From Eledone cirrhosa (lineage: Eukaryota): DNA of 64,000 nucleotides. The translations under genes and the position numbers were made by a program. Numbering within the stretch: the stretch's first letter is position 1; each line of letters starts with the position of its first letter. Location: the NCBI GenBank assembly GCA_964016885.1, contig OZ024741.1, positions 36,890,001 through 36,954,000 on the forward strand. The letters run 5' to 3'. Positions 601-4,554 of this stretch are shown piece by piece. The notes beneath the pieces are model-generated. The model was not told the DNA's origin. It ran no database searches and saw only the letters and a list, made by a program, of their open reading frames with translations.

Positions 601-1003
601 GATTAGTTTAACAACTGTCACCATACTGCCAACATCACATTTAATTTGTATTGAATTACTTACATAGTTTTTAAATTCATTTTAAATAGTTAAACTTTTG
701 TAGTCCCTCCTTATTTCTTGGTCATGAACCTATATTTCTAATGAAAAACACGGTATTTCAATTAATTAATGAACATTTTAGAGGGATTTACTAAAACTAT
801 TAATTATTTCATTATTAAAATAGTCATATAAATTATGTTGCACAATTTTAATATAAACTAGCAGAATGGCCCGGCGCTGCTCGGGATTTGCTCTAGGGTT
901 CTTATATATTTGATATATATTTATCCTTATTGAGCCTCGTGAAATAAATATGTTTGTTTATATTTTGTTATTGTGTATGCAAAAATATCTGTACACGAAT
1001 ATA

Positions 1004-1035
<32 letters not shown>

Positions 1036-1306
1036 CGATATTAATAAATGGAAACTATATTTATAAAACCATATTTATTTCATTATACATATTTCAGGGA
1101 TACCACATTAAATTATGGTATGCCTTCATCAGACAAAATACAATATATAACAGTTTTACAAATAGGTTTGACGTACCCTTTAAAATACAACCATTACTTT
1201 TGGAGGCTGTCTGGATAGTGATTTGTTCATATAATAAGTCATAGTGTTAAGCACAATTAGAAAAAGACGGAGAGAAAGAAAGTGAAAAGAACAAAGACAG
1301 AGAGAG

Positions 1307-1524
1307 AGAAAGAAAAGAGAAAGAAAACCTGGAGAAATATCGGAGAGAGAGAGAAAAGTATGGAGAAAAGAAAGAGATATCTCTCCGCTATTTCTCCATA
1401 TGGTTTTATAAATATAGTTTCCATTTATTAATATCGTATATCTACTCCAAAAATTTGTCGAGTGCTTTATATCAGTTATAAAAATATTTACTTGTTGTAT
1501 CCCAACAATTTTAAATAGAACTTT

Positions 1525-1568
<44 letters not shown>

Positions 1569-1786
1569 AAAGTTCTATTTAAAATTGTTGAGATACAACA
1601 AGTAAATATTTTTATAACTGATATAAAGCACTCGACAAATTTTTGGAGTAGATATACGATATTAATAAATGGAAACTATATTTATAAAACCATATGGAGA
1701 AATATCGGAGAGATATCTCTTTCTTTTCTCCATACTTTTCTCTCTCTCTCCGATATTTCTCCAGGTTTTCTTTCTCTTTTCTTTCT
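1307..1786. repeat. 480-bp near-perfect palindrome centred on a (TA)n tract
   Basis: The arms are reverse complements with 2 mismatches found by eye. ORFs 1180..1569(-) and 1524..1802(+) give nearly identical translations. Confidence 0.95.
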
Positions 1787-1919
1787 ATATAAAAATATAT
1801 AAAAATAACAGATTAAAGTTTAAGCAAAGAATCGTGCTTTCATGCTTAACGGGATCTTCTGAAACTAAAAAAATCAATCTGTGAACGTAGAAGTAAATAT
1901 TTCGAAAAACGTTACACAC

Positions 1920-1951
<32 letters not shown>

Positions 1952-2227
1952 GAGCGTCATAATGTCGTAATGCAGACAGCCAAACATACAGACAGATATT
2001 ATAAGGGCGCAACATTATATCTATGTATCTATCTAAAAAGAAAGACTAAGATTATAGAGAGAGATCGCTAAATCGCCTAATGCGGTCCCTAGGGCATTGA
2101 AAATTTGAACTCACAGGACCATAAGCATTATGTGTGTAAAATTTGAAAACAATCGGTTGGGTGGTTCTCGAGTTTTAGGGAGTCAGACAGACAGACAGAC
2201 AGACATTCTCTGTTTTAGATATATAGA
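1952..2227 (-). mobile_element. Helitron 5' module type A (TCTATATATCTAAAACAGAGAATGTCTGTCTG...)
   Basis: TC start on the - strand at 2227, followed by (CTGT)n. An inverted copy lies at 4046-4338. Confidence 0.8.
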
Positions 2228-2265
2228 CTAGCAGAAAACCACCCACCGGGTGGTTTTCTGCTAGT
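2227..2265. repeat. 39-bp perfect hairpin with CTAG at both ends (18-bp stem, 3-nt loop)
   Basis: ACTAGCAGAAAACCACCC-ACC-GGGTGGTTTTCTGCTAGT. Confidence 0.95.
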
Positions 2266-2735
2266 ATATATATATATTACACACACAGAAATGTATATAT
2301 ATTTCTGTGTATATATATATATATATATTACACACACAGAAATGTATATATATTTCTGTGTGTATATATATATATATTACACACACAGAAATGTATATAT
2401 ATTTCTGTGTGTATATATATATATATATTACACACACAGAAATGTATATATATTTCTGTGTGTATATATATATATATTACACACACAGAAATGTATATAC
2501 ATTTCTGTGTGTATATATATATATTACACACACAGAAATGTATATATATTTCTGTGTGTATATATATATATATATACACACACAGAAATGTATATATATT
2601 TCTGTGTGTATATATATATATATATATATATTACACACACAGAAATGTATATATATTTCTATGTGTATATATATATATTTCTGTGTGTGTATATATATAT
2701 ATATTACACACACACAGAAATGTATATATGTTTCT
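2266..2735. repeat. Minisatellite, ~9 units of ~47-57 bp, each unit self-complementary
   Basis: Unit is TTACACACACAGAAATGTATATATATTTCTGTGTG(TA)n. CACACAGAAAT pairs with ATTTCTGTGTG. Confidence 0.9.
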
Positions 2736-3036
2736 GTAGCACTCCTCAATTCCCCCCTCTCTCCCTCCCGCTATCCCCCTCTTGTAGTCTGTCTCTTTCT
2801 TTCACTCTCACTCTCTATCTACGCGTGCACAAAAAACATTCGCACGCACGTGTTTTAGCGTCTATTCACTCTCTCTCTCTCCCTCTCTCCCTCCCGCTAT
2901 CCCCCTCTCGTAGTCTTCTCTTTCTTTCACTCTCACTCTCTCTCTACGCATGTGCAAAAAACATTCGCACGCGCGCACATGTTTCCACCGTCGGACAGAC
3001 AGACAGAGAAATTGCTGGTTATATATTATAAGGAGA
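2728..3036 (-). mobile_element. Helitron 5' module type B, copy 1, with internal ~126-bp tandem duplication
   Basis: Starts A|TCTCCTTATAATATATAACCAGCAATTTCTCTGTCTGTCTG on the - strand. CCCTCTCTCCCTCCCGCTATCCCCCTC occurs at 2755 and 2881. Confidence 0.75.
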
Positions 3037-3790
3037 TTACATATACATATGTAACTATGTATATCATCATCATCATCCCCATTATATATATATATAATAT
3101 GGGCCGAAGCCGAAAAAAATTTTGTTTGGCAGCTCTAATTGTGCCTTAATTTTATTCAAAAAATTGTATGCTAACATATTCGAATACCAGGCACTATTGG
3201 AATCAACAATAGCAGCGTCCTGAGGGTCATTACAAAACACAAATTCGCGAGAATTAGTGTTTAAGGCTTGGAAGGTGGTAAAAAAATCCACAAAATCTTC
3301 CATTCTTTTAAAAAAAAAATTTATTTTTAATAATATTTAAATAACTGGCGGTTAGAAAAAAATATTCCTATGAAATTTTAATCATACCATTAGGTGTGAA
3401 TAAGGAAATATTTTTTTATTGTCAAAACAAATGTTCAAAAGTTGAACACTGAAATTGAACACTGGACATTGGCTGCTGGAAATGGAAATTAAATCGTATT
3501 TAATTGTATTTAAATTTCTAACCTTATTTTATTATTTATATTTTTTCAATAAGAAATAAAAAAAACAACAAAAAAAATTGAAGAAAAAAATTGAACAAAT
3601 CAAACGTAGGTTATGGAACTGCGCAATCTGATTAATAAATTACCACATCAGCAGCAACCTTCTTCAAATGGTCCTTATTATCAGCAGCAACAACCACAAA
3701 TTCAATGGCAACCTTCTTCGCATGGAGTCAAGTCAGAACTGCCTCGAACTGGTTACTGCTGGCTTGTGCAAGGTGTCTCTATAGCAACCA

Positions 3791-4009
3791 GCGATTCCCT
3801 CGGCCTCACTGACCAAAGTCAGTGGAGAGGGGAAGGTAATGTTTCTGTAGCACGTGTTTTAGCGTCTATTCACTCTCTCTCTCTCCCTCTCTCCCTCCCG
3901 CTATCCCCCTCTTGTAGTCTGTCTCTTTCTTTCACTCTCACTCTCTCCGCAAGTGTTTCCACTGTCGGACAGACAGACAGAGAAATTGCTGGTTATATAT
4001 ATAAGTAGA
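3791..4009 (-). mobile_element. Helitron 5' module type B, copy 2
   Basis: Direct repeat of 4342-4554 and of part of 2728-3036. Its TC start abuts the CTAG at 4010. Confidence 0.8.
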
Positions 4010-4049
4010 CTAGCAGAAAACCACCTGCGGGCGGTTTTCTGCTAGTCTA
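4006..4049. repeat. Second double-CTAG hairpin (17-bp outer stem)
   Basis: TAGACTAGCAGAAAACC-ACCTGCGGGC-GGTTTTCTGCTAGTCTA. Confidence 0.95.
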
Positions 4050-4338
4050 TATATCTAAAACAGAGAATGTCTGTCTGTCTGTCAGCTCACTGAAACTTGA
4101 GAACCATCCAACCGATTGTTTTCAAACTTTAGACATGTAATACTTATGGTCCTGTGAGTGTTTTGAGCAAAAATTATTTCAAATTTTCAATGCCCTAGGG
4201 ACCGCATTAGGCGATTTAGCGTTCTCTCTATATAATTCTTAGTCTTTCTTTTTAGATAGATACATAGATATAACGTTGCGCCCTTATAATATCTGTCTGT
4301 ATGTCTGGCTGTCTGCATTACGTCATTATGACGCGCTC
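4046..4338 (+). mobile_element. Helitron 5' module type A, inverted copy
   Basis: Reverse complement of ~1952-2227 with scattered substitutions and a ~19-bp indel. Confidence 0.8.
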
Positions 4339-4341
4339 AGC

Positions 4342-4554
4342 GCGATTCCCTCGGCCTCAGTGACCAAAGTCAGTGGAGAGTGGAAGATAATGTTTCTGTA
4401 GCACGTGTTTTAGCGTCTATTCACTCTCTCTCTCCCTCTCTCCCTCCCCCTCTCGTAGTCTGTCTCTTTCTTTCACTCTCACTCTCTCTCTACGCACGTG
4501 TTTCCACTGTTGGACAGACAGACAGAGAAATTGCTGGTTATATATATAAGTAGA
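4342..4554 (-). mobile_element. Helitron 5' module type B, copy 3 (outer terminus)
   Basis: Direct repeat of 3791-4009, ending at the A|TC boundary. Confidence 0.8.

What the first reader, a model, noticed from the sequence alone, without database searches (positions are those of the whole stretch)
858..4554. 3.7-kb multi-terminus Helitron concatemer that appears to have inserted as one unit
Seen, reading the - strand: A|TC B-head (4554), inverted A-head, hairpin-CTAG|TC B-head (4010/4009), cargo, A|TC B-head (3036), minisatellite, hairpin-CTAG|TC A-head (2228/2227), 480-bp palindrome, hairpin-CTAG|T (858). Deleting 858-4554 joins A857 to T4555 with no TSD. The restored sequence aligns without gaps to an uninterrupted MITE copy at 6352-6400 (38/49 by hand). 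Established: Helitrons have TC and hairpin-CTRR ends, insert between A and T, and form CTAG|TC junctions in circles and tandem arrays. Inference: a mosaic of two head types, inverted modules and cargo was assembled by rolling-circle read-through and strand switching, then moved as a block. Serial nested insertion is the alternative.
Basis: partly seen in the sequence, partly recalled or inferred. Interest (0 to 1): 0.75.

Follow-up and report, generated by a model that had tools for sequence, protein, structure and literature searches.

The report
Helitrons stacked on an older Helitron
This 3.7-kb stretch is a stack of gene-less rolling-circle transposons (Helitrons) whose young front modules, here and at over a thousand other places in the genome, sit exactly before the first two letters of another Helitron, likely because they insert one after another at those start sites rather than arriving as one block.

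Summary
All junctions, the A|T empty site and the palindrome are real, but 'inserted as one unit' is not supported. The 3' part (858-2227) is an ordinary ~650-bp non-autonomous Helitron found alone at many loci. It is interrupted by an unrelated TA-tract element whose local inverted duplication makes the 480-bp palindrome. In front sit B-headed modules ending in a palindromic terminus H (CTAG at both feet). H has 1,657 exact sites, and 1,373 abut a TC; the ordinary tail is followed by TCT at 162 of 2,512. In 128 sampled sites the commonest B-headed module always abuts a Helitron head (48 of 48), while another family with the same hairpin ends freely (8 of 8). Modules stack in many orders before different families. 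The leader is less diverged than the element behind it at 24 of 27 loci (here 0.4% vs 3.0%). One paralog set shows a leader placed exactly at an internal A|TC. Best reading: serial, head-targeted insertion, with H usable on either strand. No autonomous partner with a B head or H tail was found. The scan noted this family before on other DNA of this genome.

The parts
4342..4554 (-). B head (5' TC) and body of the outermost leader module B-a-H (545 bp, 4554-4010); last or joint-last arrival
   Evidence: A|TC at 4555|4554; module recurs singly and in tandem; 72 of 76 B heads not at a junction are preceded by A
4046..4337 (+). inverted A1-type Helitron head ('a') carried inside the B-a-H module; on the + strand it follows H as CTAG|TC
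   Evidence: 58 copies, mean 1.3% from their consensus, this copy 0.4%
4010..4045 (.). palindromic terminus H (13-bp stem, CTAG at both feet); 3' end of B-a-H on the - strand
   Evidence: 1,657 exact sites, 332 with TC on both sides
3040..4009 (-). second B head (4009-3791) plus cargo c1 (3790-3040); c1 1-453 is shared with B-c1'-H modules, the rest likely captured by read-through
   Evidence: c1 0.7-1.0% from consensus
2265..3036 (-). internal B2 head (3036-2738) and 49-51-bp minisatellite; B2-mini-H also occurs as a module of its own
   Evidence: loci L155, L156, L160, L162, L171
2228..2264 (.). H in the reverse loop orientation; 3' end of the B-c1-B2-mini-H leader, joined CTAG|TC to the resident A1 element
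1787..2227 (-). 5' part of the resident A1 non-autonomous Helitron (head 2227-1951, body c2 1950-1787); oldest Helitron at the locus
   Evidence: A1-c2-T alone at many loci, e.g. L049-L051, L059, L061, L064, L070, L076; 3.0% from consensus
1566..1786 (.). local inverted duplication of the first ~220-240 bp of the TA-tract element; with the central (TA)n it makes the 480-bp palindrome
   Evidence: 2 mismatches between arms; the c2|palindrome joint was seen only here among 40 scored hits
1035..1527 (-). unrelated foldback/MITE-like element sitting in the (TA)n tract between c2 and the tail
   Evidence: relatives between (TA)n tracts with no Helitron termini, e.g. L160, L163; other A1 copies have only (TA)n here
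858..998 (-). tail T of the A1 element: short hairpin about 8 nt before CTAG, then host T
   Evidence: 56 of 56 distinct T ends followed by T; 2,512 exact sites
736..857 (.). host dispersed repeat, right part; continues at 4555; uninterrupted paralog at 6346-6513

Best explanation
The stretch is a stack of non-autonomous Helitrons likely built in steps: an ordinary A1 element likely inserted first at a host A|T, and younger B-headed modules ending in the palindromic terminus H were likely added later exactly between that A and the TC of the element already there. Proposed mechanism (inferred): a RepHel enzyme supplied in trans nicks resident 5' ends at A|TC, as it does to start transposition, and the B/H modules integrate at that nick. 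The host A joins the new B head and the new CTAG joins the old TC, which renews the A|TC target for the next module. Because H is a palindrome with CTAG at both feet, it can likely end an element on either strand. This accounts for modules with H in opposite orientations (B-c1'-H, B2-mini-H reversed, B-a-H) without a strand switch during replication. B-c1-B2-mini-H likely arose once by read-through and moves as one module. The 480-bp palindrome is a later local foldback of an unrelated TA-tract element. Shown: structure, counts, relative divergence, one empty/filled paralog set. Inferred: order at this locus, the enzyme, and why these modules are head-specific.
For: (1) 1,373 of 1,657 exact H sites have TC on at least one side. 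The ordinary tail T is followed by TCT at 162 of 2,512; per end 51% vs 6.4%. (2) In 128 sampled H sites, B-c1'-type (Hc) ends abut a Helitron head in 48 of 48, of four head types; another ~490-bp family with the same hairpin (Hd) ends in host DNA at 8 of 8 independent sites (p=7e-10). In the sample taken by the H pattern alone, 29 of 34 distinct contexts abut a head and the other 5 are Hd. (3) 598 of 1,933 exact A2 heads are preceded by CTAG. (4) On homologous sequence, the A head inside the leader is less diverged than the terminal A head at the same locus in 24 of 27 loci; with subfamily-specific consensuses 24 of 25, 1.1% vs 4.3%, and 0.4% vs 3.0% here. Nearest-neighbour distances are 1.2% for leader copies and 4-5% for terminal copies. 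Led and free A1 copies are equally old (4.9% vs 4.4%, p=0.51). At this locus leaders differ at 13 of 1,274 sites and the terminal element at 13 of 491 (p=0.015). (5) Led A1 copies do not cluster on a tree: 8 changes for 8 mini-H-led and 8 for 8 Hc-led rows; the two nearest relatives of this copy are free elements. (6) A family with an internal inverted A1 head is empty there in L054, L082, L084, L085 and carries B2-mini-H exactly between the A and the TC in L080. (7) Modules occur in many orders (L018, L047, L144, L158, L172). (8) In another organism's run (X1) a single-copy-depth 998-nt contig follows the flank to 4554 and then departs, with no B-head cover, as an empty site would.
Against: Age test: 3 of 27 loci do not fit (L135 tie; L144 and L167 have a terminal A of a small young subfamily and fell out of the 25-locus recount); among loci found by H patterns it is 7 of 10. 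The A1 tree is star-like (6 of 32 branches well supported), so lack of clustering is weak evidence, and mini-H-led A1 copies are slightly closer to each other than random sets (0.082 vs 0.105 between, p=0.016). No allele with the A1 element alone was seen at this locus. No RepHel element with a B head or H tail among 40 examined. Whether B-a-H and B-c1-B2-mini-H arrived here separately or together is unresolved (no clustering, p=0.30, 6 of 31 copies). Free targets of the T tail resemble the A head no more than AT-richness predicts, so a simple head-like target preference does not explain the specificity. The letters of the X1 contig beyond 4554 were not shown. The genome-wide T control used TCT while the H count used TC.
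Confidence: 0.72

Rival explanations
1. One reading: the composite was assembled once by read-through and strand switching, H acts as a silent internal junction, and stacks move as blocks from the outer B head to the final tail.
For: Clean A...T boundaries. The 2.3-kb leader recurs at L013, L014, L027, L046, L047. B-c1-B2-mini-H-A1-c2-T recurs at L154, L157, L158. Hairpin bypass is shown for Helraiser (PMC4778049, passages). L144 and L167 have young terminal elements.
Against: Leader younger than the terminal element at 24 of 27 loci and here. Terminal elements are 4-5% from their nearest neighbour. The same leader precedes different families. L080 is filled at an internal head. The palindrome insert was not seen in other copies.
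Confidence: 0.12
2. Joining in trans: B/H modules are ligated to the 5' end of another Helitron strand or circle while both are being mobilised, and the hetero-concatemer then integrates, so each locus is a new combination made in one event.
For: Explains precise G|T joints and free permutation of modules. The transposase makes precise RTS-LTS joints in vitro (PMC5876387, passages). Old A copies could be re-mobilised.
Against: Predicts re-mobilised terminal copies with near-identical source copies; nearest neighbours are 4-5% away in a sample of about 65 (the sample is small against thousands of copies). Does not explain the filled internal head in L080.
Confidence: 0.09
3. Leaders spread by ectopic recombination or gene conversion between homologous heads, not by transposition.
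For: Heads share AT-rich starts and (GTCT)n tracts; tandem B-a-H repeats could expand by unequal exchange (L011, L018).
Against: Downstream heads differ from base 4-10 onward and the break is exactly at G|T; outer B heads start at A|TC in unrelated flanks with no carried flank (72 of 76).
Confidence: 0.05
4. Assembly artefact for the stack or the palindrome.
For: Perfect palindromes and minisatellites are error-prone; no read was laid across the whole element.
Against: The junction types recur at hundreds of loci. A short-read contig crosses 4555|4554 with no difference (24 nt inside; possibly the source individual). The palindrome arms differ at 2 sites.
Confidence: 0.02

Closest known systems
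Canonical non-autonomous Helitrons (HLE1/Helitron1; Helraiser/Helibat, wheat Xuan) - PMC4778049, PMC11417382, PMC13286980 (passages read)
   Same: 5' TC, 3' hairpin and CTAG, insertion between A and T, no TSD, no coding capacity; RepHel partners with similar ends are in the genome.
   Different: In H the terminal CTAG is inside a 13-bp or longer stem instead of 10-15 nt after a short hairpin, and the end reads alike on both strands. Helraiser inserts at dispersed AT sites in AT-rich DNA, whereas B/H modules are found almost only at other Helitrons' 5' ends.
Adjacent head-to-tail dissimilar Helitrons in the maize r1 region (Du et al. 2008, PMC2267711, passages read)
   Same: [quoted passage not shown]
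   Different: One pair, order unclear; here over a thousand sites, a family-level rule, stacks of up to six or more modules, and age polarity.
Multi-terminus and compound Helitrons made by nesting and end bypass (Dong et al. 2011, PMC3288121; Thomas et al. 2014, PMC4224331; passages read)
   Same: Internal heads and tails; B-c1-B2-mini-H looks like an end-bypass compound.
   Different: In the sampled maize elements 99 of 100 internal 3' ends had lost the CTAG; here internal ends are intact and abut a TC directly.
Tandem Helitron arrays from rolling-circle amplification (as cited in PMC5876387, PMC11934779, PMC12001565; passages read; original plant and bat papers not read)
   Same: CTAG|TC joints; tandem B-a-H copies occur (L011, L016-L018, L040).
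   Different: Those arrays repeat one unit; these stacks mix families of different ages.
Target-specific transposons that live on other repeats (Dada, PMC8869645, search listing only; IS26 translocatable units, PMC4196232, search listing only)
   Same: Safe-harbour strategy of inserting at or beside a multicopy element.
   Different: Different enzymes; here the target would be the origin of a related rolling-circle element.

Membership tests
HLE1 (Helitron1), non-autonomous | 5' TC preceded by host A | tested here: met
   A|TC at 4555|4554; 72 of 76 B heads not at a junction
HLE1 (Helitron1), non-autonomous | 3' CTRR followed by host T | tested here: met
   858|857; 56 of 56 T ends; H ends followed by the T of a head or of host DNA
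HLE1 (Helitron1), non-autonomous | short hairpin 10-15 nt before the 3' end | tested here: inconclusive
   Roughly met for tail T (hairpin about 8 nt before CTAG); H differs: the stem includes the CTAG
HLE1 (Helitron1), non-autonomous | no target-site duplication | tested here: met
   Restored site aligns ungapped to the paralog, 38 of 49; L080 vs four empty paralogs
HLE1 (Helitron1), non-autonomous | autonomous RepHel partner sharing the termini | tested here: inconclusive
   For A elements: L185 has an A2-type head (81% over 164 nt), a T-like tail and Rep plus PIF1 domains in separate frames; L114 has a 1,718-aa frame with STPR, Rep and PIF1 and similar ends. For B/H modules: none among 40 loci
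HLE2 (Helitron2/Helentron, HINE) | short (sub)terminal inverted repeats, insertion between T and T | tested here: not met
   Insertion is A|T with TC starts; no endonuclease domain among the Pfam hits of the 4 frames scanned
Rolling-circle tandem array (single-unit concatemer) | identical units head to tail, same age | tested here: not met
   Three unlike units of different divergence at this locus
Compound Helitron moved as one block | same composite at several loci with shared private variants | tested here: not met
   Full architecture not found at the other 10 exact mini-H|A1 junctions; no clade of led A1 copies (low power). Met only for the sub-module B-c1-B2-mini-H
Head-targeting Helitron (proposed) | de novo integration at resident A|TC ends | not testable with these tools
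   Needs a transposition assay or polymorphic A-only alleles

The most novel reading that the evidence does not exclude
A site-specific Helitron lineage that lives on its relatives: it integrates almost only at the nick site of other Helitrons' origins, renews that target with each insertion, and uses a two-fold symmetric terminus that ends transposition on either strand, so that new modules are born by strand flips and up to a third of some host-family heads are capped.
Probability: 0.55. Interest if true: 0.8.

Novelty: new variant of a known kind. Interest (0 to 1): 0.64.

Why it matters
How Helitrons choose and open a target is the least understood step of their cycle. A family that goes almost only to A|TC origins of other Helitrons, beside a family with the same hairpin that inserts freely, is a natural pair of substrates for testing whether integration uses the same nick as initiation and whether the head or the tail sets the specificity. 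It also shows that CTAG|TC joints and a clean empty site do not prove rolling-circle concatemers or one-step insertion, which bears on how such stacks are annotated and dated.

Tried and rejected
Block insertion as judged by the restored empty site: rejected as a test, since 5' stacking gives the same result. Palindrome as a Helitron strand switch: rejected. Coding or RNA function: three ORFs of 131-246 aa on the + strand, all across microsatellite DNA; no Rfam match in 600-4800. Head-like target preference of ordinary T ends: 5.94 matches of 14 vs 5.93 shuffled, 49 free sites, rejected. Clustering of B-a-H copies by downstream module: none (31 copies). The automatic architecture strings mis-oriented several loci (e.g. 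L155, L157, L102), so its count of 35 architectures is not used. One search measured A1 copies against a consensus dominated by the inverted copies; it was redone, which left out L144 and L167. The first read overlay was swamped by flank repeats and is used only for the B-head depth contrast (X1 about 100-350 vs X2 about 150,000, not a copy number). RAD runs X5 and X6 did not show this locus. Loci L104-L113 were not analysed. Seven paper searches listed no report of a Helitron family specific for other Helitrons' 5' ends; the library lacks most subscription journals, one maize survey asked for by a recalled id was not held, and no supplements were read. The guess that the genome is a cephalopod's is from recall of such repeat landscapes and was not tested; PMC13282606 (passages) says nothing on Helitron termini.
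Full report
Observation. The in-silico empty site matches the paralog at 6352-6400 at 38 of 49 without gaps. The palindrome 1307-1786 has 240-nt arms with 2 mismatches. The window lies in a 3.0-Gb genome, G000, at C2:36890001. The element has no coding or Rfam content of note.

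Anatomy. Reading the - strand there are three Helitron units and one foreign insert. Unit 1 is B-a-H (4554-4010): a B head, an inverted A1 head, and the terminus H. Unit 2 is B-c1-B2-mini-H (4009-2228). Unit 3 is A1-c2-T (2227-858). Unit 3 is an ordinary element of about 650 bp that stands alone at many loci with A|TC and CTAG|T ends. Between c2 and T other copies have only a (TA)n tract. Here that tract holds a member of an unrelated foldback family (1527-1035), seen elsewhere between TA tracts without Helitron ends (L160, L163), and an inverted copy of its first 220-240 bp makes the palindrome. That joint was found only here among 40 scored hits.

The terminus H. Both internal hairpins are palindromes with CTAG at each foot. 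The exact pattern occurs 1,657 times, the reversed control 0 times. 1,705 of the 3,314 ends are followed by TC and 332 sites have TC on both sides, so 1,373 of 1,657 sites (83%) abut a TC. The ordinary tail T is followed by TCT at 162 of 2,512 sites; the two patterns differ by one base, which slightly lowers the control. Among 128 distinct H sites in fetched loci, those ending B-c1'-type modules (Hc) were followed by a Helitron head in 48 of 48 (30 A2, 10 B, 7 A1, 1 other). A separate ~490-bp family with the same hairpin (Hd) ended in host DNA at 8 of 8 independent sites, plus 2 tandem copies. Many of the 128 were found through a head junction; in the subset taken by the H pattern alone, 29 of 34 distinct contexts abut a head and the other 5 are Hd. 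From the other side, 598 of 1,933 exact A2 heads are preceded by CTAG. So the hairpin can end a free element, yet B-headed modules that use it were not found free.

Block or serial. The restored A|T cannot decide, because an element inserted between the host A and the TC of a resident leaves the same outer boundaries; Du et al. name this route for one maize pair (PMC2267711, passages). Four lines favour serial addition. First, combinatorics: the 2.3-kb leader of this locus also stands at L013, L014, L027, L046 and L047 before different elements; unit 2 plus unit 3 without unit 1 stands at L154 and L157, and behind an Hc module at L158; orders are permuted at L018, L047, L144 and L172. Of 11 exact mini-H|A1 junctions, none of the other 10 has the full architecture of this locus. 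Second, age on homologous DNA: the inverted A head in the leader is less diverged than the terminal A head at 24 of 27 loci (L135 tie, L144 and L167 against; 7 of 10 among loci found by H patterns). With subfamily consensuses it is 24 of 25, 1.1% vs 4.3%, with L144 and L167 left out. Nearest-neighbour distances are 1.2% for leader copies and 4-5% for terminal ones, and led A1 copies are as old as free ones (14 vs 18 copies, p=0.51). Here the figures are 0.4% vs 3.0%, and 13 of 1,274 vs 13 of 491 sites over all measured segments (p=0.015). Third, led A1 copies are scattered among free ones on a tree of 35, though the tree is star-like and mini-H-led copies are a little closer to each other than chance (p=0.016). 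Fourth, a family with an internal inverted A1 head is empty at that head in L054, L082, L084 and L085 and carries B2-mini-H exactly between the A and the TC in L080; three further copies (L067, L068, L081) have other inserts at or near that place.

Other genomes. In run X1 (another organism label, 11 differences in 97 nt) one 998-nt contig at single-copy depth follows the flank from 4650 to 4554 and then departs, and nothing covers the B head at 4520-4549. Stopping at 4554 fits an empty site better than an A head, which would match to 4551, but the letters were not shown. In X2 a contig crosses 4555|4554 with no difference; it may be the source individual. No intermediate allele was seen.

Enzyme. 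PF14214 gave 150 scored matches of 3,704 candidates, all over the cut-off. Of 40 loci fetched at 9.9 kb, L185 has an A2-type head, a T-like tail and Rep and PIF1 domains in separate frames; L114 has a 1,718-aa frame with STPR, Rep and PIF1 domains and similar ends. STPR is almost confined to HLE1 (PMC11417382, passage). None of the 40 had a B head or an H tail, so the partner of the B/H modules is unknown.

Mechanism (inferred). RepHel nicks A|TC to start transposition and joins CTAG to TC precisely (PMC4778049, PMC5876387; passages). If a B/H module integrates at such a nick, the host A joins its head, its CTAG joins the old TC, and a fresh A|TC is made for the next module. The loop orientation of H flips from Hc to mini-H to a-H. 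This is what one expects if a B head landing on the opposite strand of an earlier stack reads through to the same palindrome and ends there; no strand switch in replication is needed. Why B/H modules are head-specific while Hd and T elements are not is unexplained; free T targets are no more head-like than AT-rich DNA. Likely order here: host repeat, A1 element, then the TA-tract element with its foldback and the leaders, unit 2 before or together with unit 1 (unresolved).

Standing. The parts are HLE1-type non-autonomous Helitrons. Head-to-tail pairs, compound elements and tandem arrays are known. A family-wide, near-obligate position at other Helitrons' starts with a two-way terminus was not found in seven paper searches of a library that lacks most subscription journals; supplements were not read. 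Three unreviewed notes of this scan reach the same reading on other DNA of this genome; I recorded my reading before seeing them and do not count them as support. Verdict: observation confirmed, block insertion not supported, new variant of a known kind, interest 0.64.

Noticed in passing
window 13135-22691 and 22793-55700: Two large CCA/TGG-rich satellite arrays (38-bp and 24/54-bp periods) in opposite orientation, about 42 kb in all, meeting at a ~100-bp AT-rich spacer at 22692-22792 with no CTAG or Helitron head visible.
   Followed up: partly
L115 and L123: An autonomous RepHel family with a long terminal hairpin; the L123 copy ends directly before an A2-like head and the L115 copy is preceded by the same family's tail. 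Possibly another head-seeking or tandem-forming family; two copies only.
   Followed up: partly
L120, L127, L177, L180, L183, L189: The largest RepHel family in the sample often has its tail joined to its own head (short tandem units before or after the coding copy).
   Followed up: no
L104-L113 and the list (contigs C16, C19, C20, C27): Many high-scoring RepHel copies with the same 362-aa frame spaced about 100-150 kb apart in clusters, suggesting a very large tandem or segmental repeat that carries a Helitron.
   Followed up: no
L011:3305-3354 (reverse strand): A minimal module of about 12 bp plus H: a B head fused through TATA microhomology to the end of the inverted A head, still preceded by A.
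   Followed up: no
L031, L033, L038, L042: Stacks whose last recognised module is B-headed with no H or A element found downstream in the fetched DNA; truncated or interrupted, not resolved.
   Followed up: no
window 4495-4549: The B head is almost absent from run X1 (another organism label) although flank repeats are covered at similar depth, suggesting the B family is lineage-specific and young.
   Followed up: partly
window 1035-1527; L160:1880-2615; L163: Unclassified foldback element with ~180-bp inverted arms and a ~90-bp one-sided extension, found inside (TA)n tracts.
   Followed up: partly
L147: The same leader plus A2 composite occurs twice about 5 kb apart with matching context; local duplication or block move, not tested.
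   Followed up: no
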